Of a DNA stretch of 20,000 nt, positions 4,403 through 20,000 are shown piece by piece (positions within the stretch are counted from its first letter, which is position 1; each line of letters opens with the position of its first letter). The notes beneath the pieces were generated by a model that was not told the DNA's origin, ran no database searches, and worked only from the letters and a program-made list of their open reading frames with translations. A program made the position numbers and the translations under genes. Source of the DNA: an uncultured virus (IMG/VR IMGVR_UViG_3300034101_003821) (taxonomy: Duplodnaviria > Heunggongvirae > Uroviricota > Caudoviricetes); IMG/VR virus record IMGVR_UViG_3300034101_003821, one strand, 5' to 3'.

Positions 4403-4455
4403 TTACAAGATTGTTGAAAATACCAAATAAAACATTATTATTAAATAAAAAAGTT

Positions 4456-6486
4456 ATGATAGAATCTAAAGATGGAGATTACTCAAGTAAAGGTAAGGGC
4501 GACACACCAGTATTAAATAATTTTGCAAAAGATTTGGTTAAACTTGCGGAGGAGGGAAAATTAGACCCTGTTGTAGGTAGAGATAGAGAAATAACAAGAA
4601 TAGCCCAAATATTATCAAGAAGAAAGAAAAATAATCCAATTATAATCGGTGAACCAGGTTGTGGAAAAACCGCTATAGTAGAAGGTTTGGCCTTGAAAAT
4701 ATTGAATGGAGATTGTCCAAGAAATCTAATGGATAAAAGAATTATGTCCTTAGATATGACCTCAATTGTTGCAGGTACAAAATATAGAGGACAATTTGAG
4801 GAAAGAATGAAGGTGATTATAGAAGAACTACAAGCCGCCCCAAATATCATTTTGTTTATCGATGAAATCCATCAAATTGTTGGTGCAGGTAATTCATCAG
4901 GTTCATTGGATGCCTCTAACATATTTAAACCAGCCTTAGCAAGAGGGGAAATCCAATGTATTGGTGCAACCACTTTGGATGAATATAGAAAGAATTTTGA
5001 AAAAGATGGGGCATTAGAAAGACGATTCCAAAAAGTAATTGTTGACCCATCAACTAAAGATGAAACATTACAAATTTTATTAAATGTCAAAGACAAATAT
5101 GAAAATTACCATAAAGTAAATTATAGTGATGATGTACTTAAACTTTGTGTTGATTTAGCAGAAAGATATATTACAGATAGAGAATTTCCGGATAAGGCAT
5201 TTGACATTATTGATGAAGTCGGAGCAAGAAGTCAGGTTGAAATTAAAATGCCCCAAATTGTGGAGGATTTGAAAACACAAGCCCAAGAAATAAAAAAACA
5301 AAAAATAGATGTTGTAAAAAGTCAAAACTATGAACTGGCTGCAGATTTAAGAGATAAGGAAACAAAAATATTAGATAAGTTAGAAGAGGAAAAAAAGAAA
5401 TTCGAATTTGATTTATTAAACAAAAAGAAAGAAGTTAGTGTGGAACTAGTTTATGAAGTTGTATCTAATATGACTAAGATTCCTGTCTCAAAAATGGATT
5501 CTGATGAAACTAATAAACTTTCATCTCTTGATAACAATTTGGCTTCGAAAGTTATTGGACAATCAGAAGCTGTTCTTAAAATCGCAAAAGCAATAAGGAG
5601 AAATAGATTGGGGATTAAAGACCCTAATAAACCAATTGGTTCATTTATTTTCTTAGGCTCAACAGGTGTGGGTAAAACTTATTTAGCCAAACAATTAGCT
5701 AAGGAAATATTTGGTAGTGAAGAAAATCTAATCCGTGTTGATATGTCAGAATTCCAAGAAAAACATTCAATATCAAGATTAATTGGTTCACCTCCAGGTT
5801 ACGTTGGTTACGATGAAGGGGGACAACTTACCGAACAAGTGAAAAATAAACCATATTCAGTTATTTTATTCGATGAAATTGAGAAAGCAAATAAAGACGT
5901 GTTTGCAACGTTACTCCAAGTTTTAGACGATGGACATCTTACTGATGGTCTTGGAAGAAAAATTAATTTCAAGAATTGTATCATTATTATGACCTCAAAC
6001 CTTGGTGTCAAAAAACTACAAGATTTTGGTACTGGTGTTGGATTCAAAACAAACGCGAATGTTTACATTGAAGAGGAACATAAAAGGGATATGTTAAAAA
6101 AGGAATTGCAGAAATTCTTTGCCCCTGAATTCCTTAATCGTATTGATGAAATTATTGTTTTTAATACATTGAAGGAAGACGAAGTAAAACAAATTGTTAA
6201 ATTAGAGGTCGATAAACTAATTAAAAGATTAGAAGGTTTGAATTATAATATTTCTTGTGATGATTCAGTTTTAGAATTAATTTCTAAAGTTGGTTTTGAT
6301 GAAACATATGGTGCCAGACCAATCAAAAGAGCAATTCAAGATAAAATTGAAGATTTTGTATCAGAAGAGGTGTTAAATGGTAAAATTATAGAAAATGAAC
6401 AATACATTCTAACCGTAGATAATGAAAGTATAATTTTCAAAGAAAAGGAAACCAAAAAAACCAAAAAGAAAAAAGGGACTGAATAG
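4456..6486 (+). CDS. clpC: ClpC-like AAA+ unfoldase (two AAA modules, UVR middle domain, ClpP-docking VGF loop), lacking the Clp-N domain
   Basis: Walker A GEPGCGKT and GSTGVGKT; Walker B LFIDEIH and ILFDEIEK; pore loops AGTKYRG and GYVG; UVR QNYELAADLRDKE; GTGVGF loop; YGARPIKR. ATG 4456 preferred over TTG 4411. Confidence 0.93.
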   Translation: MIESKDGDYSSKGKGDTPVLNNFAKDLVKLAEEGKLDPVVGRDREITRIAQILSRRKKNNPIIIGEPGCGKTAIVEGLALKILNGDCPRNLMDKRIMSLDMTSIVAGTKYRGQFEERMKVIIEELQAAPNIILFIDEIHQIVGAGNSSGSLDASNIFKPALARGEIQCIGATTLDEYRKNFEKDGALERRFQKVIVDPSTKDETLQILLNVKDKYENYHKVNYSDDVLKLCVDLAERYITDREFPDKAFDIIDEVGARSQVEIKMPQIVEDLKTQAQEIKKQKIDVVKSQNYELAADLRDKETKILDKLEEEKKKFEFDLLNKKKEVSVELVYEVVSNMTKIPVSKMDSDETNKLSSLDNNLASKVIGQSEAVLKIAKAIRRNRLGIKDPNKPIGSFIFLGSTGVGKTYLAKQLAKEIFGSEENLIRVDMSEFQEKHSISRLIGSPPGYVGYDEGGQLTEQVKNKPYSVILFDEIEKANKDVFATLLQVLDDGHLTDGLGRKINFKNCIIIMTSNLGVKKLQDFGTGVGFKTNANVYIEEEHKRDMLKKELQKFFAPEFLNRIDEIIVFNTLKEDEVKQIVKLEVDKLIKRLEGLNYNISCDDSVLELISKVGFDETYGARPIKRAIQDKIEDFVSEEVLNGKIIENEQYILTVDNESIIFKEKETKKTKKKKGTE

Positions 6487-7211: not shown

Positions 7212-8003
7212 TTATTTTTTAGTGTATTTTTTTGTACCCAACTCAGATATCATTTTCTTAGCAATATCCAAAGTATTATATACATCATCAACAATTACAT
7301 ATTCGTGTTCTGTGTGATAGTTGTAATAACCAACAGCAAAGTTTATACAGGAAAAATCAAATAGTTGTTTAAGTGCGTAAACATCAGTATAAGGGTGGGA
7401 TTGGTATTTGTTTCGACTATTAAAACCCTCCGTTAATACTTTGTCACATTTATCGAAGAAATCACTACCCTTATCAAATAGTTTGACACCCATACAATAC
7501 TCACTGACCATCCAATTACCAGGAGCATCAAATTGCATAACATAACCAACATTTGAGAAGAAATCTTTATCGGCTTTTTTTGACCCATGACATCCTGTTT
7601 CTTCCGATACAAAGAAAGCTGCTTTGACATTTGGTAATTGTTTTAATAACTCCAAACAAACATAAACACCACATTTGTCATCACCCCCAATTCCAGTGGG
7701 TAATCCTTGGTCATTAAAAGCCTTTAAGGCCATCTTTAATTCGTTTTGGTCATTGGGTAACATCATCTCACGAATATTGATTGTATCGAGCTCGTGAACG
7801 GTATCTGTGTGGGCAACGACACAAGGAAAATATTCAACCTCATCAGTTTGTTTGGTTGCATAAACATTTCCCATCTTATCAACAAAATAAGGAATATTAT
7901 TTTCAACCAACCATTCGGTTAAAAATTGAATCATTAAATCCTCTTTATATGTTTTTGTGGGGACAGATAAAACCCTTTTTAAAAAATTGATATTTTGTTC
8001 CAT
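7212..8003 (-). CDS. M20/M28-family zinc metallopeptidase
   Basis: AHTDTVH, GGDDKCG, SEETG, QFD and C-terminal YYNYHT zinc-ligand motifs. Confidence 0.85.
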   Translation of the reverse strand: MEQNINFLKRVLSVPTKTYKEDLMIQFLTEWLVENNIPYFVDKMGNVYATKQTDEVEYFPCVVAHTDTVHELDTINIREMMLPNDQNELKMALKAFNDQGLPTGIGGDDKCGVYVCLELLKQLPNVKAAFFVSEETGCHGSKKADKDFFSNVGYVMQFDAPGNWMVSEYCMGVKLFDKGSDFFDKCDKVLTEGFNSRNKYQSHPYTDVYALKQLFDFSCINFAVGYYNYHTEHEYVIVDDVYNTLDIAKKMISELGTKKYTKK

Positions 8004-9485: not shown

Positions 9486-9867
9486 GGGGGTAATCTGGAA
9501 TCGACTGACGTTGTTAGTTATTCGGGGCATGCCGGACCTGAACTAAGTCCGTTAAACTGGTTTGAAACGATACACGGCAACGTTATCAACAAACTTTCTG
9601 CAGTAGGTTTAATCCGTGCTGAAGAAGCGGTAGTAGCCTAGTCAATAGGATATTACTTTCGAGTCGGGGTGCATTAACTCAGGAACAGGAGCACTGAAGG
9701 GTTGTCTAACTAATTCTCATCCCTAAAAATGAATTGGCTGATTTTGTTGGTTTTGGTAGTAATTAAAATCAAATAGCTCGGAGCACTGCGAATAATGTTG
9801 TCCTAAGCATGTAGTCCTTAATAGTTAAGATGGACAGGAAAGGGTTCGACTCCCTATACCTCCACCG
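9486..9867 (+). ncRNA. ssrA: tmRNA
   Basis: 5' GGGGGTAATCTGGAATCGAC; 3' GGAC...AGGG-TTCGACT-CCCT-A-TACCTCC-A-CC; 7-bp acceptor stem with the G3:U alanine identity pair and A discriminator; internal tag ORF 9576..9641 GNVINKLSAVGLIRAEEAVVA*. Confidence 0.92.
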
Positions 9868-14809: not shown

Positions 14810-15070
14810 TTATAATTTATCGAAATCTTCTCTCATTTTTGAGAGTTGATATTCCGTTGTTTTTCTTTCACTATCTAAGATTGATTTGATAAAATCATCA
14901 CCACCTAACTTGATAAAACGATTGATTTTAAAGTTACAAGTTGATGTCCCCTTTATCTCCATTTCCAATTTTTTTGACTCAATTAAGTTATTGATTGTTG
15001 ATAACTTGAACTCCAAATTAACTATTGTTTCTTTGAGTTTTTTTATCTCATTGTATTTTTCTTCTGTCAT
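14810..15070 (-). CDS. Hypothetical protein (86 aa)
   Basis: ORF in the co-directional block. Confidence 0.7.
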   Translation of the reverse strand: MTEEKYNEIKKLKETIVNLEFKLSTINNLIESKKLEMEIKGTSTCNFKINRFIKLGGDDFIKSILDSERKTTEYQLSKMREDFDKL

Positions 15071-16732: not shown

Positions 16733-16918
16733 TCAATCTCTGTTTCTCATATGGATTGGTAACATTCTATGTGTACTTCCCCTCTTTTTGAGATTTGGAC
16801 TTTTCATTTTGTGTCTTAAGCTCGCTTGTGGATAAGAATGACAAGAGGGTCTTTGAAATACAACACAAGATGAAAGTGTAAAAAATAAAAATAATATTAA
16901 TATCTTTTTCATTATCAT
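16733..16918 (-). CDS. Small basic lipoprotein candidate
   Basis: MKKILILFLFFTLSSC lipobox. Confidence 0.6.
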   Translation of the reverse strand: MIMKKILILFLFFTLSSCVVFQRPSCHSYPQASLRHKMKSPNLKKRGSTHRMLPIHMRNRD

Positions 16919-17007
16919 AAATATCCTAAATGTCAGTATCTAAAAATCCCAACATATAAAATATTAATAGTACAATTAACATTACATAAAGCATAAGATA
17001 ATTTTTG

Positions 17008-17084
17008 TACCCCCTGAGAGAATCGAACTCTCAATCAAAACATCATCCTAAATGATGCGCGTCTACCTATTCCGCCAAGGGGGT
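17008..17084 (-). tRNA. tRNA-Leu(UAG) with a short variable region
   Basis: ACCCCCT-TG-GCGGAATAGGTAGACGC-G-CATCA-TTTAGGA-TGATG-TTTTGATT-GAGAG-TTCGATT-CTCTC-AGGGGGT-A. Confidence 0.85.
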
Positions 17085-17091
17085 ATTTTTG

Positions 17092-17176
17092 TAGTCGGGA
17101 TGAGACTCGAACTCATAAGGTCTTACTGACCACAACGGTTTAAGTGTTGCGTGGATACCAATTTCACCACCCGACC
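17092..17176 (-). tRNA. tRNA-Leu(UAA)
   Basis: GGTCGGG-TG-GTGAAATTGGTATCCAC-G-CAACA-CTTAAAC-CGTTG-(variable arm GGTC/GACC)-ATGAG-TTCGAGT-CTCAT-CCCGACT-A. Confidence 0.88.
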
Positions 17177-17180
17177 TACA

Positions 17181-17309
17181 TTACAAACCAAATCCCAACT
17201 TAATGAGATATACCAAACCCAGTACAATTAAAGCTAACATCGTACCTGCAAACATCTGTAAAGAAAACTTAACTTGTTCTTCACTTTTTCCTTGATTCTT
17301 GTTCTCCAT
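17181..17309 (-). CDS. Small single-TM protein (42 aa)
   Basis: Not in the ORF track. MENKNQGKSEEQVKFSLQMFAGTMLALIVLGLVYLIKLGFGL*; start overlaps the upstream stop codon. Confidence 0.6.
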   Translation of the reverse strand: MENKNQGKSEEQVKFSLQMFAGTMLALIVLGLVYLIKLGFGL

Positions 17310-17551
17310 CATAAAAATTTTTGATAATCCATAAAATGTTTATTTACCCACATTTTACCTGTTACTTGAGTTGGATGTTCTCGTTTACTTAGGTCGAAAA
17401 TTTCAACCATCGTTTTTCTTTCATTATCTAACTCATCCCAAAGATAAGATATCGCCAAGTTTAATTTCCGTTTTTCCTCAGTACCAACCTCGGACTCTCT
17501 GACAAGTTTTTCTAACTTTGCTATAACATTTTGAATGGGGGTGTTTTTCAT
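17309..17551 (-). CDS. Hypothetical protein (80 aa)
   Basis: Start moved to MKNTPIQ (17551) because the longer start overlaps the DfrB-like ORF. Confidence 0.7.
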   Translation of the reverse strand: MKNTPIQNVIAKLEKLVRESEVGTEEKRKLNLAISYLWDELDNERKTMVEIFDLSKREHPTQVTGKMWVNKHFMDYQKFL

Positions 17552-17567
17552 CACAACTTTAATTTTT

Positions 17568-17744
17568 TTAATTGTTAATGTCAAGTTCCAACTGACTCTC
17601 ACTAAATATGTGCAACATTCCATTGTCGATTAATTCAGCAACAATTCTTGTTTCACCTGATGTGGTTTGAAATACCGCCACTACGATACCAGGGAACTTA
17701 TACCCTTTTGGTTTGTAAACCTTGTCTCCTACTTTGAACTTCAT
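17568..17744 (-). CDS. SH3-like protein resembling R67/DfrB dihydrofolate reductase (58 aa)
   Basis: Not in the ORF track. MKFKVGDKVYKPKGYKFPGIVVAVFQTTSGETRIVAELIDNGMLHIFSESQLELDINN*. Confidence 0.7.
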   Translation of the reverse strand: MKFKVGDKVYKPKGYKFPGIVVAVFQTTSGETRIVAELIDNGMLHIFSESQLELDINN

Positions 17745-17750
17745 TTTTTT

Positions 17751-18155
17751 CTATTTTAAATAATTAACATGTATTGAATGAAAACCCTCACTCCTATTTA
17801 TTTTTAATTCCATCCTTGAACCAGTAACATAATCAACCCAAACATTTTCACCAACTTTCACATATGGCTCCAAATCTTTATAAGATTTGTTTAACATCTT
17901 GATTGGTCTGTAAACACTCCAATTTGCACAATATTCTACCCCATTACTTTCAACAAAAATGAACCCATAACTTTCCAATTGTTTCTCGTCCATATACACA
18001 ATATCATAATAATAAGTAAAAATCTTTAATCCATCAATGAATTCGGTTTTGTGATTTGTACCTAGATTTTTTTCAATTTGTTGGGGAGATAAACCTAGTT
18101 GTGCAAATGTTAAAAATGGTAAAAATAATAATAGAAATAAAATCGTTTTTTTCAT
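17751..18155 (-). CDS. Secreted hypothetical protein (134 aa)
   Basis: Signal peptide MKKTILFLLLFLPFLTFA-Q; Gln at +1 is typical of Bacteroidota exported proteins. Confidence 0.75.
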   Translation of the reverse strand: MKKTILFLLLFLPFLTFAQLGLSPQQIEKNLGTNHKTEFIDGLKIFTYYYDIVYMDEKQLESYGFIFVESNGVEYCANWSVYRPIKMLNKSYKDLEPYVKVGENVWVDYVTGSRMELKINRSEGFHSIHVNYLK

Positions 18156-18169
18156 AATTTTTGTTTTAG

Positions 18170-18243
18170 TACACCCATTTGGATTCGAACCAAAGACCTA
18201 CTGCTTAGAAGGCAGTTGCTCTATCCAGCTGAGCTATGGGTGC
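18170..18243 (-). tRNA. tRNA-Arg(UCU)
   Basis: GCACCCA-TA-GCTCAGCTGGATAGAGC-A-ACTGC-CTTCTAA-GCAGT-AGGTC-TTTGG-TTCGAAT-CCAAA-TGGGTGT-A. Confidence 0.95.
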
Positions 18244-18249
18244 ATAATT

Positions 18250-18460
18250 TCCCCACCTTGAGATTACTGGTGAGTAGTTATTTCGGTTTTTTCCTATTCA
18301 AAAAACCTGTTGGGCATCCCCACTGAAAAAAGTCACACATACGAAGGAGGGGGTGTGCTGCCGCCTTTAACCCTAAGAATCGGCATTCCGTTGTCCGATT
18401 TGAACGAGTTCATTGTTAAATGAGTCTTGAACCAAAGACTGCTGAGTATCTCTTACTCAT
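18250..18460 (-). ncRNA. Candidate structured ncRNA (~210 nt, multi-hairpin, possible pseudoknot)
   Basis: GC-richer stretch with no listed ORF and six stems: 18443-18459, 18423-18440, 18378-18400, 18334-18357, 18285-18307 and 18254-18272; bracketed by tRNA-type structures. Confidence 0.6.
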
Positions 18461-18462
18461 TG

Positions 18463-18569
18463 TAGTCAGGACAGGATTCGAACCTGTAAAATCTTTTATC
18501 TGGTTTAGGGTAGGTTCTATTCCTATCTCCTTCCAAAACATATAGCGTCTACCATTCCGCCACCTGGCT
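18463..18569 (-). ncRNA. tRNA-like RNA 1 (Leu-type D arm, canonical T arm, greatly expanded anticodon arm)
   Basis: AGCCAGG-TG-GCGGAATGGTAGACGC-(~57 nt)-ACAGG-TTCGAAT-CCTGT-CCTGACT-A. Confidence 0.75.
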
Positions 18570-18574
18570 AAATT

Positions 18575-18835
18575 TTAATTCAGTGCATCTATTTCCATAC
18601 AATACAAACCGAACTCTTGTATTTCATCACCATATCTATACTTGTAAGTTCCCTCATATATGTCGGGATAACTACTATCATAAGGAAAATAACCCAAGTA
18701 TTCAACATCCTTATCTTCAAAGTAGGGTGGTAATCCCATATACTCATCCAAGAGTTGTTTGACCTTTTCAACTGTCGTTGCAGTTAGTACTGGGATTTTA
18801 TCTTCCCTATCTACTATAAGATATATTAGTGCCAT
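18575..18835 (-). CDS. Hypothetical protein (86 aa)
   Basis: ORF between the two tRNA-like RNAs. Confidence 0.7.
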   Translation of the reverse strand: MALIYLIVDREDKIPVLTATTVEKVKQLLDEYMGLPPYFEDKDVEYLGYFPYDSSYPDIYEGTYKYRYGDEIQEFGLYCMEIDALN

Positions 18836-19206
18836 TGTTGTAAACTTTTATTTATATTAATTTTTGTCAATTTTTTTTTTCTTTTTTTTTTATTTTTTTC
18901 TTTTCCTTTTTTTTCTTTTATTTTTTTTTCTTTTGTTTTTACGACTTCCACCAAATCCATTTCTGGGTCAGATAATTCTTGATAACCAAACATTGAAAAG
19001 TCAGAAATATAAGACCACCACTTTCCATCAAAAACATATCTTTCATGGTCTATTTTTGGTTTTTTATTGTCAATGCTTTTACCAAAATAAATTCCATCCC
19101 ATCCATCTCTTTTCCCTTCTATTGGTGGATTACCCTTGATAATTTTTACTAATCTACCATCTCTACTCTTGTAAGTTTTACCTACTTCTAAAATTATATT
19201 TTCCAT
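18826..19206 (-). CDS. Hypothetical protein with a Lys-rich tail (126 aa)
   Basis: Start moved to MENIILEVGKTYKSRDG (19206) because the longer start runs through tRNA-like RNA 2. Confidence 0.65.
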   Translation of the reverse strand: MENIILEVGKTYKSRDGRLVKIIKGNPPIEGKRDGWDGIYFGKSIDNKKPKIDHERYVFDGKWWSYISDFSMFGYQELSDPEMDLVEVVKTKEKKIKEKKGKEKNKKKRKKKLTKININKSLQQWH

Positions 19207-19238
19207 ATTTATAATTTTTATTTTTTTAAATAAGTTAG

Positions 19239-19319
19239 TAGTCAGGACAGGATTCGAACTTGTGACGATAAACGCAGATGTGTACCTCATCTTGGCAGCT
19301 CCAATTCTGCCACCTGACT
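19239..19319 (-). ncRNA. tRNA-like RNA 2 (non-canonical anticodon loop AGGTACA)
   Basis: AGTCAGG-TG-GCAG-AATTGGAG-CTGC-CA-AGATG-AGGTACA-CATCT-GCGTTTATCGTC-ACAAG-TTCGAAT-CCTGT-CCTGACT-A. Confidence 0.7.
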
Positions 19320-19419
19320 TTGTTTGTTTAAACTTTTCGGTTTTCCTATTCAAAACCTTAACGTCAGGCAACAATCTAAGTGTCAGCCACTACTTGTGAA
19401 TTATTAGGTGTCACAACCA

Positions 19420-19647
19420 TTAGAAATATTTTCTTGTCGCCCATTCATATGTATAAAACTCAGGAGCATTACCATTAGGTAGAGATAAAAACATAAAACC
19501 ATTGTAAGCATTAGATTTATGTAAGATATGTTCAATCATTGTAATAACCCCCATTTTTTCATCCAAAGATATATTGGTGTTACTGAGTACCAAGTTAGCA
19601 TAATCTTTTATTTCTTGAACTTGGATTGTTTTTTTCTCTTTTGCCAT
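19420..19647 (-). CDS. Hypothetical protein (75 aa)
   Basis: ORF with its own promoter. Confidence 0.75.
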   Translation of the reverse strand: MAKEKKTIQVQEIKDYANLVLSNTNISLDEKMGVITMIEHILHKSNAYNGFMFLSLPNGNAPEFYTYEWATRKYF

Positions 19648-19669
19648 TGTGTTTCCGTTTAAGTGTTCA

Positions 19670-19700
19670 CAAATATAGAAATAGATTTTTAATTACACAA
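19670..19700 (-). promoter_or_regulatory. Bacteroidota sigma-A-type promoter
   Basis: Minus-strand TTG (19700-19698), 20-nt spacer, TATATTTG (19677-19670). Confidence 0.6.
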
Positions 19701-19731
19701 CCTTTGATGAATATTTTTGGGAAAATATTTG

Positions 19732-19802
19732 AGCGGATAGTTGGTACCGCCCCAACTTATCTAGTTTGGAAGACTAGAACATTACTTTTATGCTATACCC
19801 GC
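19732..19802 (-). tRNA. tRNA-Gly(UCC) with non-canonical D and T loops
   Basis: GCGGGTA-TA-GCATAAAAGTAATGT-T-CTAGT-CTTCCAA-ACTAG-ATAA-GTTGG-GGCGGTA-CCAAC-TATCCGC-T (U73). Confidence 0.85.
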
Positions 19803-19806
19803 TAAT

Positions 19807-20000
19807 TTACCTTAGATTCCAAATACCACCAGCAAAACACTTGAAGTCATTGTAACTTGTAACTCTTATAGGGTTTTCTTCATATTTCCACCTATTACAA
19901 GTTATATAGATTTCTCCTGTCCATTTATCCTTTTTGAGAAAGGTATAAATACCATTACGAGATTTGATATGGATTTTATCCCCATTTTTGAGGTTCTTAA
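19807..20000 (-). CDS. Hypothetical protein, 5'-truncated by the window edge
   Basis: Open frame ...KNLKNGDKIHIKSRNGIYTFLKKDKWTGEIYITCNRWKYEENPIRVTSYNDFKCFAGGIWNLR*. Confidence 0.65.
   Translation of the reverse strand, partial: KNLKNGDKIHIKSRNGIYTFLKKDKWTGEIYITCNRWKYEENPIRVTSYNDFKCFAGGIWNLR

What the first reader, a model, noticed from the sequence alone, without database searches (positions are those of the whole stretch)
18250..18460. ~210-nt structured RNA sandwiched between a tRNA mimic and tRNA-Arg
Seen: a stretch with no listed ORF, visibly GC-richer than its flanks, that folds on the minus strand into successive stems: TGAGTA/TACTCA, AGTCTT/AAGACT, AATCGG/CCGATT, CACAC/GTGTG, GGTTTTTT/AAAAAACC and CACC/GGTG. 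The CCCC in the CACAC loop could pseudoknot with either of two GTGGGGA copies (18317-18323 and 18250-18256). The first stem begins about 3 nt after the discriminator of tRNA-like RNA 1, and the region ends about 7 nt before tRNA-Arg. Inference: tRNA processing on both sides would release it as a discrete RNA. I cannot assign it to a known family.
Basis: partly seen in the sequence, partly recalled or inferred. Interest (0 to 1): 0.72.

Follow-up and report, generated by a model that had tools for sequence, protein, structure and literature searches.

The report
Triple-pseudoknot RNA in phage tRNA array
The flagged stretch is a real gene for a tightly knotted non-coding RNA that many uncultured giant lake phages keep, once per genome, wedged between their tRNA genes; it matches no catalogued RNA family and its job is still unknown.

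Summary
Window 18244-18462 (minus strand) encodes a ~219-nt structured RNA. Its suggested CCCC/GTGGGGA pseudoknot does not.

The fold is a 5' hairpin (P1), three H-type pseudoknots in a row, then three hairpins (P6-P8). The P1 loop (GAGA) can pair with the P8 loop (UCUC).

On 100 relatives from IMG/VR, 90.3% of cells pair against 74.5% in shuffles. The covariation score is 0.380 against 0.121 (0 of 500 shuffles reach it). Swap tests support every pseudoknot helix.

- No match in Rfam 15, no blastn match in GenBank phages, and one match (a small Bacteroidia MAG contig) in 185,579 species genomes.
- One copy in each of 5 of 5 large phage records (194-465 kb). All five encode a T4-type capsid protein.
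- Starts right after the discriminator of a tRNA or tRNA look-alike in most loci and ends 8 nt before tRNA-Arg.
- Not coding.
- Contigs from three metatranscriptomes cover it.

Most likely it is a stable trans-acting RNA cut out of the tRNA precursor by RNase Z-type and RNase P cleavage; this is inferred, not shown. Its partner and function are unknown.

The nearest analogues are T4 rnaD/rnaC, but homology was tested and not found. This scan has already found the same family on other genomes.

The parts
18244..18462 (-). Whole RNA gene (RNA position p = 18463 - window coordinate). Starts CAAUGAG right after the upstream discriminator; the 3' tail GAAAUUAU runs up to tRNA-Arg.
   Evidence: Covariance model R1 scores 219.5 bits, E 2e-70, over 18245-18462 on the minus strand only. 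It is 74% identical to the diverged relative L006 (165 of 213 aligned positions).
18443..18459 (-). P1 hairpin: UGAGUA / UACUCA with loop AGAGA (18449-18453).
   Evidence: 99.3% of cells paired; three pairs show changes on both sides (U-A to C-G, G-C to A-U, A-U to G-C). In 80 of the 100 rows the sequence was fixed by the search pattern.
18407..18440 (-). Pseudoknot A: stem AGUCUU/AAGACU (18435-18440 with 18423-18428). Its loop GGUUCA (18428-18433) pairs with UGAACU (18407-18412).
   Evidence: The loop-downstream helix has 6 of 6 pairs with changes on both sides and 91.5% of cells paired; the stem has 92.6% paired. Swap test 52 of 52.
18378..18406 (-). Pseudoknot B: CGUU/AACG (18403-18406 with 18389-18392) and AAUCGG/CCGAUU (18395-18400 with 18378-18383).
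   Evidence: AAUCGG/CCGAUU has 96.3% of cells paired and 6 of 6 pairs with changes on both sides. The first pair of CGUU/AACG reads CG 33, GC 32, AU 13. Swap tests 56 of 58 and 54 of 66.
18334..18377 (-). Pseudoknot C domain: P4 (AGGG 18371-18374 with UCCU 18345-18348), P5 (GGCG 18362-18365 with CCCC 18349-18352). The P5 loop CACAC (18353-18357) pairs with GUGUG (18334-18338).
   Evidence: P4 93.9% of cells paired (one pair reads GC 39, UA 31, AU 12, CG 12); P5 90.4%; CACAC/GUGUG 68.4%. Swap test for CACAC/GUGUG 62 of 81, p 1.4e-9.
18311..18322 (-). P6 hairpin UGGG-GAUG-CCCA. Its tip comes in two forms across the family (GAUG or UAAGA).
   Evidence: Two pairs covary strongly (GC 53, AU 19, UA 15, CG 6). 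The tip form switches together with base 185 (window 18278): CA 52, AU 41.
18285..18307 (-). P7 hairpin GGUUUUUU-GAAUAGG-AAAAAACC.
   Evidence: Five outer pairs 94.5% of cells paired; U-A to G-C in 16 rows.
18252..18274 (-). P8 hairpin CUCACC/GGUGGG. Its loop holds AAUCUCA; UCUC (18260-18263) is complementary to GAGA in the P1 loop (18449-18452).
   Evidence: P8 99.0% of cells paired, 6 of 6 pairs with changes on both sides. The loop-loop pairing is 100% paired, with one-sided wobble changes only.
18463..18569 (-). Upstream neighbour: a tRNA look-alike (acceptor, D and T arms) with a 47-nt insert where the anticodon arm should be.
   Evidence: Rfam tRNA 34.4 bits against a gathering score of 29. 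ARAGORN does not call it. Against L006 the shell is 83-85% identical and the insert 34%.
18170..18243 (-). Downstream neighbour: tRNA-Arg(UCU). Its 5' end would set the RNA's 3' end through RNase P cleavage.
   Evidence: ARAGORN; Rfam tRNA 70.4 bits.

Best explanation
This is a single-copy gene for a stable, trans-acting non-coding RNA of an uncatalogued family. Uncultured T4-type giant phages of lakes carry it inside their tRNA gene arrays.

It is transcribed on the tRNA strand as part of the tRNA precursor. Host tRNA-processing enzymes then cut it out. An RNase Z-type cut after the discriminator of the upstream tRNA look-alike makes its 5' end (C at 18462). RNase P cleavage at the 5' end of tRNA-Arg makes its 3' end (18244).

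It folds into a compact body: hairpin P1, three H-type pseudoknots in a row, and hairpins P6-P8. Pairing of the P1 loop (GAGA) with the P8 loop (UCUC) probably closes the body.

The fold and its conserved junction bases would give nuclease resistance and a specific surface for a protein or RNA partner. Because it is co-expressed with the tRNAs, that partner is probably tied to tRNA or translation take-over.

Shown: the fold, the family, the placement, the copy number. Inferred: the excision route, the stability, and that it acts in trans. Unknown: the partner.
For: **Fold**
- On 100 family members, 90.3% of cells pair against 74.5% in shuffles.
- 49 of 61 pairs show changes on both sides.
- The covariation score is 0.380 against 0.121 in shuffles (0 of 500 reach it) and 0.037-0.068 with partners slid.
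- A structure-blind mutual-information scan puts the proposed pairs on top.
- Swap tests support all four pseudoknot helices tested: 52/52, 54/66, 56/58 and 62/81. Two negative controls give p 0.45 and 0.26.

**Family**

**A gene, not a repeat or a general spacer**
- Exactly one match in each of 5 of 5 phage records of 194-465 kb.
- All five encode a Gp23-type capsid protein.

**Placement**
- Starts one base after a tRNA-type discriminator. 78 of 95 distinct loci have a canonical T-loop in place and about 9 more a variant T-arm.
- ARAGORN-called upstream tRNAs have 12 identities besides one undetermined call.
- Same strand as the tRNAs.

**Not coding**
- The frame from the AUG runs from 2 to more than 72 codons and splits into two frames after codon 6.

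**RNA libraries**
- Contigs of 3 of the 4 laid metatranscriptome runs, from three studies, cover it. One spans 18251-18492 with 22 differences. One covers 18310-18446 exactly.

**Precedent**
- In T4, rnaD lies directly after tRNA-Arg and rnaC follows it. Both are annotated as small stable RNAs.
Against: - No RNA ends, abundance or stability were measured. Contigs cannot show ends, and RNA libraries can hold DNA.
- One RNA contig bridges the junction between the tRNA look-alike and the RNA, by 30 bases on one side. So an uncut precursor, or DNA, is also present.
- One of the four RNA runs covers the flanking ORFs but not the RNA.
- About 7 of 95 loci have no tRNA upstream, so excision by tRNA enzymes cannot be the only route.
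- No partner protein is conserved next to it. The two flanking ORFs recur only in near-identical contigs and in one relative at 73%.
- In one relative (L075) only the P1 hairpin remains, between the same two tRNAs that flank the full RNA in L035 and L110. The RNA can therefore be lost.
- The loop-loop pairing has no change on both sides, and one variant (G11 to A) breaks its end pair without compensation.
Confidence: 0.58

Rival explanations
1. It is a cis-acting part of the tRNA precursor: a folded spacer that guides, times or protects processing of the neighbouring tRNAs. It would have no function after release.
For: It abuts the upstream tRNA to the base. The 5' CAA and the P1 hairpin are the best-conserved part; 34 of 56 members fished with an anchor elsewhere in the RNA keep the exact 19-base word. 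The P1 hairpin alone persists between tRNA-Thr and tRNA-Leu in L075.
Against: There is one copy per genome in arrays of many tRNAs, so it cannot serve the array in general. Its neighbours are of 12 tRNA identities besides one undetermined call, so it is not tied to one tRNA. About 7 of 95 loci have no tRNA upstream. A spacer role does not explain 200 nt of covarying pseudoknots and conserved junction bases.
Confidence: 0.14
2. It is a self-cleaving ribozyme that cuts at its own 5' end and so frees the 3' end of the upstream tRNA. HDV-like theta ribozymes are proposed to do this behind phage tRNAs.
For: It lies immediately 3' of a tRNA, as theta ribozymes do (PMC10879173; search listing and start of the abstract only). 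It has a pseudoknotted core with highly conserved unpaired bases.
Against: No ribozyme family of Rfam 15 matches at E up to 10. The 5' end forms a local hairpin, not the P1 of an HDV fold. There is one copy per genome, behind many different tRNAs. At about 215 nt it is far larger than known self-cleavers (sizes recalled). An RNA contig runs across the supposed cleavage site.
Confidence: 0.07
3. It is a counter-defence decoy: a folded RNA that soaks up a host nuclease or toxin aimed at tRNAs or phage RNA. Phage pseudoknot RNAs that imitate type III antitoxins work this way.
For: Phage-borne pseudoknot RNAs that neutralise ToxN-type toxins are on record (PMC5449768 and PMC5772629; search listing and starts of abstracts only). 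The RNA sits among phage tRNA genes, which are often read as replacements for tRNAs that the host destroys (recalled).
Against: The three pseudoknots are unlike each other, and the region has no tandem repeat. Type III antitoxins, by contrast, are arrays of one repeated unit. No toxin gene or defence context is linked to it here. Nothing tested here speaks for it directly.
Confidence: 0.08
4. It is not a functional RNA: a chance spacer, a decayed tRNA or a small protein gene.
For: The single-sequence folding energy is no better than that of shuffles (z = -0.73). A 14-codon ORF starts at 18460.
Against: Covariation in 49 of 61 pairs. The family has at least 120 members. The reading frame is not kept. 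There is no tRNA-model match in the region.
Confidence: 0.01

Closest known systems
Phage T4 small stable RNAs rnaD (species 2, 119 nt) and rnaC (species 1, 139 nt)
   Same: Non-coding RNAs encoded in the tRNA cluster of a T4-type phage, on the tRNA strand. rnaD starts directly after tRNA-Arg and rnaC follows it. rnaD begins AAUGAG right after the tRNA's CCA; this RNA begins C-AAUGAG right after the discriminator. The carriers here also encode a Gp23-type capsid. Their function is unknown (recalled).
   Different: Model R1 finds nothing in the T4 tRNA region with filters off (best E 0.55, on a 22-base piece elsewhere). The T4 RNAs are about half the size. By reading, rnaD ends in ...GCGCACCA and rnaC carries a GGTTCGAATCC T-arm. 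This RNA has no tRNA-like end.
GOLLD and ROOL RNAs (large ornate RNAs of phages and prophages)
   Same: Phage-borne, often near tRNA islands, pseudoknotted, function unknown. Loop-loop pairings first seen by covariation turned out to bridge separate molecules in RNA-only cages (PMC12286853, passages read).
   Different: No Rfam match to either family. This RNA is about 215 nt; GOLLD members often exceed 800 nt (PMC12286853). It is essentially absent from bacterial genomes, hence from prophages (1 match in 185,579 species genomes). Multimer formation is untested.
HDV-like theta ribozymes behind phage tRNAs
   Same: A structured RNA placed directly 3' of a phage tRNA (PMC10879173; listing and start of the abstract only).
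   Different: The fold is different (a local 5' hairpin and a chain of H-type pseudoknots). No Rfam ribozyme matches. It is single-copy and not tied to one tRNA type.
Pseudoknot string of tmRNA
   Same: Several H-type pseudoknots in a row in a translation-linked stable RNA (tmRNA architecture recalled).
   Different: The Rfam tmRNA model hits 9486-9867(+) in this window and not this region. There is no tRNA-like domain and no kept reading frame.

Membership tests
Any Rfam 15 family (4227 models) | Match to the family's covariance model | tested here: not met
   No match in 18244-18462 at gathering scores or at E up to 10. None in the RNA of 20 relatives' loci at E up to 5.
T4 rnaD / rnaC | Lies in a T4-type phage's tRNA cluster, directly 3' of a tRNA, on the same strand | tested here: met
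T4 rnaD / rnaC | Likeness of sequence and structure to the T4 RNAs | tested here: not met
   R1 with filters off over T4 66000-76000 gives no match in rnaC or rnaD; the best hit anywhere has E 0.55. Only short words are shared (AAUGAG, UGAGUAAG, GAUGCCC), and not in the same order.
T4 rnaD / rnaC | tRNA-like 3' part (T-arm, ...CCA end) | tested here: not met
   The 3' end here is the P8 hairpin plus GAAAUUAU. There is no T-arm, no CCA and no tRNA-model hit.
T4 rnaD / rnaC | Accumulates as a discrete stable RNA in infection | not testable with these tools
   Only contigs of metatranscriptomes were available. They show presence in 3 of 4 runs, not ends or level.
GOLLD / ROOL | Match to the Rfam models; size of several hundred nt | tested here: not met
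   No match. Length is 209-293 nt across the family.
GOLLD / ROOL | RNA-only homo-oligomer held by intermolecular loop-loop pairs | not testable with these tools
   The GAGA and UCUC loops are complementary in 99 of 99 distinct rows. Pairing within one molecule and pairing between molecules cannot be told apart from sequence.
HDV-like (theta) ribozyme | Nested double pseudoknot whose first helix is formed by the very 5' end pairing with a distant strand | tested here: not met
   The 5' end forms a local 6-bp hairpin with a 5-nt loop. No HDV-type Rfam match.
tmRNA | tRNA-like domain plus tag reading frame | tested here: not met
   The tmRNA model hits elsewhere in the window only. The frame is not conserved.
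Type III antitoxin RNA (ToxI-like) | Tandem array of one repeated pseudoknot unit next to a toxin gene | tested here: not met
   No tandem repeat in the RNA; the three pseudoknots differ in sequence. The flanking ORFs have no PHROG match.

The most novel reading that the evidence does not exclude
The GAGA and UCUC loops at the two ends do not close one molecule. Instead they join copies head to tail, so the RNA builds an RNA-only ring or cage: a small cousin of the ROOL and GOLLD assemblies, made late in infection. Alternatively, the knotted core is a new ribozyme class acting on tRNA ends. Neither reading is excluded. The loops are complementary in every member, and sequence cannot tell pairing within a molecule from pairing between molecules.
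Probability: 0.15. Interest if true: 0.85.

Novelty: new variant of a known kind. Interest (0 to 1): 0.7.

Why it matters
Giant phages carry large tRNA arrays, and here also a tmRNA, to reshape host translation. This RNA is a widespread, single-copy, elaborately folded gene inside those arrays, and it is in no catalogue.

A 215-nt RNA built almost wholly of pseudoknots is an unusual architecture. It is a good target for structure determination.

Finding its partner could finally explain why T4-type phages keep "stable RNAs" among their tRNA genes. That question has stood since T4 species 1 and 2 were described (recalled).

Tried and rejected
**Folding and repeats**
- Single-sequence MFE: z = -0.73, not informative.
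- RNAalifold on a plain MAFFT alignment found only 17 pairs, because the RNA is pseudoknotted and its loops vary in length.
- Tandem-repeat scan: nothing in the RNA.

**Coding**
- Small ORF from the AUG at 18460: rejected.

**Further long-range pairings by swap test, none supported**
- U-rich linker with the P7 loop: p 0.39. Both sides are low in complexity, so the test is weak.
- P6 loop with J7/8.
- GUA with CUAC.
- 5' CAA with the 3' tail.
- Pseudoknot A linker with J7/8.

**Searches for relatives**
- Homology to T4 rnaC/rnaD: not found.
- blastn against 50,697 GenBank phage records with three members as queries: no match in the RNA. One search, which included the flanks, matched only tRNA-Arg.
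- 19-base word in 185,579 species genomes: one cut match, at the end of a 4.4-kb Bacteroidia MAG contig.
- Weak R1 matches elsewhere in the window are not members: 19301-19396 at E 0.04-0.19, 14823-14912 at E 0.08.

**Loop variants**
- Four further IMG/VR scans for P1-loop variants in an otherwise exact word: G13 to A/C/U 0; A12 to C/U 0; A14 to C/U 0; G11 to A/C/U 1, uncompensated.

**Signals and expression**
- Promoter and terminator scan of 16900-20000: no more sites than in shuffles.
- RNA run X15 covers the flanking ORFs and tRNA-Arg but not 18274-18443. A part without cover proves nothing.

**Literature**
- Four full-text searches found no description of this family.

Full report
**What is in the window**

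The window is part of a 34.5-kb viral contig of 31% G+C. Its tRNA genes lie on the minus strand.

The flagged stretch lies between two features:
- Upstream is a 107-nt tRNA look-alike at 18463-18569. It scores 34.4 bits on the Rfam tRNA model, is not called by ARAGORN, and has a 47-nt insert in place of the anticodon arm.
- Downstream is tRNA-Arg(UCU) at 18170-18243.

The stretch has 43.6% G+C and no ORF of 50 aa or more. Rfam 15 has nothing for it, even at E up to 10. Folded alone it is no more stable than shuffles, with z = -0.73. The sequence by itself therefore proves nothing.

**Relatives**

Searching IMG/VR with the two flanking small ORFs gave five near-identical contigs and one relative, L006, at 73%. 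L006 keeps the stretch at 74% identity, and by eye several stems show compensated changes.

These gave 95 distinct versions of the following 230 bases.

A second scan used an anchor near the 3' end, outside the first and last hairpins. It returned 119 stretches:
- 34 hold the exact 19-base word.
- 22 more are family members with 1-3 changes in that word. R1 confirmed 20 of them as full length; two are cut.
- 63 show no family features and are chance matches.

**Where the family is absent**

- blastn with three different members finds nothing in 50,697 GenBank phage records.
- The 19-base word occurs once in one genome each of 185,579 prokaryote species. That match sits at the end of a 4.4-kb contig of a Bacteroidia MAG.

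The family therefore belongs to uncultured phages, not to cells or prophages.

**The fold**

I built covariance model R1 from 31 members with a hand-set nested structure. I used it to align 100 members into A5. Eighty of these rows were fished with the P1 word and 20 with the 3' anchor.

The model is as follows (RNA position p = 18463 minus window coordinate):

| Element | Pairing (RNA positions) |
|---|---|
| P1 | 4-9 with 15-20, loop AGAGA |
| Pseudoknot A | stem 23-28 with 35-40; its loop 30-35 with 51-56 |
| Pseudoknot B | 57-60 with 71-74; 63-68 with 80-85 |
| P4 | 89-92 with 115-118, enclosing P5 |
| P5 | 98-101 with 111-114 |
| Pseudoknot C | P5 loop 106-110 with 125-129 |
| Linker | U-rich |
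| P6 | 141-144 with 149-152 |
| P7 | 156-163 with 171-178 |
| P8 | 189-194 with 206-211 |
| Loop-loop | GAGA (11-14) in the P1 loop with UCUC (200-203) in the P8 loop |

**Counts on A5**

| Measure | Observed | Shuffles | Partners slid |
|---|---|---|---|
| Cells forming a standard pair | 90.3% | 74.5% | 39-46% |
| Pairs with changes on both sides | 49 of 61 | 34.8 | 23-27 |
| Covariation score | 0.380 | 0.121 (0 of 500 reach it) | 0.037-0.068 |

Three caveats apply:
- The alignment was fitted to the nested helices, so those lean towards the model.
- P1 was fixed by the search word in 80 rows.
- Pseudoknot A's stem, 57-60/71-74, 106-110/125-129 and the loop-loop pairing were not in the model and so were not fitted. 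Two of these (57-60/71-74 and 106-110/125-129) are partly misaligned and score only 55-87% and 68%.

**Independent checks of the fold**

I added an alignment-light swap test. Each sequence's own two segments were compared, by duplex energy, with its segment paired to other members' segments.

| Helix | Own pair beats swapped pairs |
|---|---|
| Pseudoknot A, loop with downstream strand | 52 of 52 |
| 57-60 / 71-74 | 54 of 66 |
| 63-68 / 80-85 | 56 of 58 |
| 106-110 / 125-129 | 62 of 81 |
| Two negative controls | not significant (p 0.45, 0.26) |

A structure-blind mutual-information scan ranks the proposed pairs on top. P1 itself shows compensated changes in the rows not fished by its word: L176, L239, L191 and L197.

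The fold is as well supported as comparative analysis can make it. Its CCCC/GUGGGGA pseudoknot is not.

**The loop-loop pairing**

All 99 distinct rows can form GAGA/UCUC. Variation is one-sided and wobble-compatible:
- A to G at position 12 in 3 rows and at position 14 in 6 rows.
- C to U once.

Four extra IMG/VR scans looked for pair-breaking variants in an otherwise exact word. They found none at G13, none for A12 or A14 to pyrimidine, and a single G11 to A, which is not compensated.

Pair-keeping transitions thus outnumber pair-breaking ones about ten to one. There is still no change on both sides, so the pairing is likely but not proven. Sequence cannot say whether it forms within one molecule or between molecules. 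For ROOL and GOLLD, loop-loop pairs first read as tertiary contacts turned out to bridge molecules (PMC12286853, passages read).

**Context**

- *Upstream.* The RNA begins one base after a tRNA-type discriminator. Of 95 distinct loci, 78 have a canonical T-loop at the expected distance. About 9 more have variant T-arms, and about 7 have no tRNA. ARAGORN calls a tRNA ending exactly there in 43 of 96 distinct loci. These have 12 identities besides one undetermined call, Asp most often at 15.
- *Downstream.* A tRNA follows within 200-300 nt of the RNA's start in 39 of 63 loci with enough DNA.
- *Copy number.* Model R1 finds exactly one copy in each of five large records (465, 318, 254, 234 and 194 kb; two are at least 96% complete).
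- *Carrier type.* All five records encode a Gp23-type major capsid protein over Pfam's cut-off. The carriers are therefore T4-type giant phages.
- *Coding.* The frame from the AUG at 18460 is not conserved.
- *RNA libraries.* Contigs from 3 of the 4 laid metatranscriptome runs, from three studies, cover the RNA at 91-100% identity. The fourth covers only the flanks. This shows presence in RNA libraries. It does not show ends or level.

**How it most likely works**

One copy per genome, varied tRNA neighbours and some loci with no upstream tRNA speak against a general processing spacer. They also speak against a ribozyme serving one tRNA. They favour a gene of its own that borrows tRNA punctuation for its ends.

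The tRNAs here carry no encoded CCA: the bases after the discriminator are CAA and CUA. That fits an RNase Z-type cut after the discriminator (established pathway, recalled). RNase P at tRNA-Arg would set the 3' end.

The released RNA would be a compact, closed, nuclease-resistant body with conserved junction bases. I read it as a binding platform for an unknown partner linked to the phage's translation take-over. The excision and the trans action are inferences.

**Comparison with known RNAs**

- *T4 rnaD and rnaC* are the closest analogues in placement and carrier type. rnaD directly follows tRNA-Arg, and both RNAs even start with AAUGAG. R1 finds no likeness, and the T4 RNAs have tRNA-like ends that this RNA lacks. 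It works like them in layout but is not a member.
- *GOLLD and ROOL* share the tRNA-island habitat and the loop-loop theme. They do not share size or model match.
- *Theta ribozymes* share only the position.

This scan has reported the same family before from other genomes. I had reached the fold, the loop-loop pairing and the T4 analogy before reading those notes, so they agree with my reading rather than support it.

**Verdict**

The family is uncatalogued and I found no description of it in the four full-text searches that ran. The function is open.

Noticed in passing
window 9486-9867 (+), with 4411-6486 (+) and 7212-8003 (-): A full-length tmRNA (Rfam 95.4 bits, E 2e-36; ARAGORN does not call it) lies on the strand opposite the tRNAs. 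Nearby are a 691-aa protein of the PHROG family 'ATP-dependent protease' (E 1.7e-242) and a peptidase-family protein. The phage seems to carry its own trans-translation and proteolysis set.
   Followed up: no
window 18463-18569 (-): A tRNA look-alike whose acceptor, D and T arms are 83-85% identical to the relative L006. The 47-63-nt insert that replaces the anticodon arm is only 34% identical. The same 'shell' (AGUCAGGUGGCGGAAUGG...CCUGACUA) flanks the RNA, upstream or downstream, in many other loci. It looks like a conserved tRNA scaffold with a hypervariable middle.
   Followed up: partly
window 19335-19359 (-): A 25-base near-copy of the P7 hairpin and the bases after it (AAGGUUUUGAAUAGGAAAACCGAAA) sits just upstream of tRNA-Tyr. 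The surrounding 19301-19396 scores only 10 bits with R1. It is either a remnant of a second copy or a reused hairpin module.
   Followed up: partly
L075 700-820 and 916-977: In one relative only the P1 hairpin (26-base spacer) remains between tRNA-Thr and tRNA-Leu(UAA), where L035 and L110 carry the full RNA. About 100 nt after that tRNA-Leu lies a freshwater-1 RNA (RF02979, 84.2 bits). The RNA can be lost while its first hairpin stays.
   Followed up: partly
L004 3589-3770 (= L010): A strain 99% identical up to the RNA's 3' end carries about 180 extra bases between the RNA and tRNA-Arg. They hold another tRNA-shell-like piece and a spacer, and that strain's tRNA-Arg region is only 82% identical. 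The array is being reshuffled right at the RNA's 3' border.
   Followed up: no
RNA positions 145-149 and 185 (window 18314-18318 and 18278): The tip of P6 comes in two forms (GAUG or UAAGA). The form switches together with one base of the P7-P8 junction (A or U): CA 52 rows, AU 41 rows. No simple pairing explains it, and the swap test was negative.
   Followed up: partly
L251 (phage T4) 5172-5174, against window 18457-18462: T4 rnaD starts AAUGAG directly after the CCA of tRNA-Arg. This RNA starts C-AAUGAG directly after a discriminator. It could be a shared processing signal or a coincidence.
   Followed up: no
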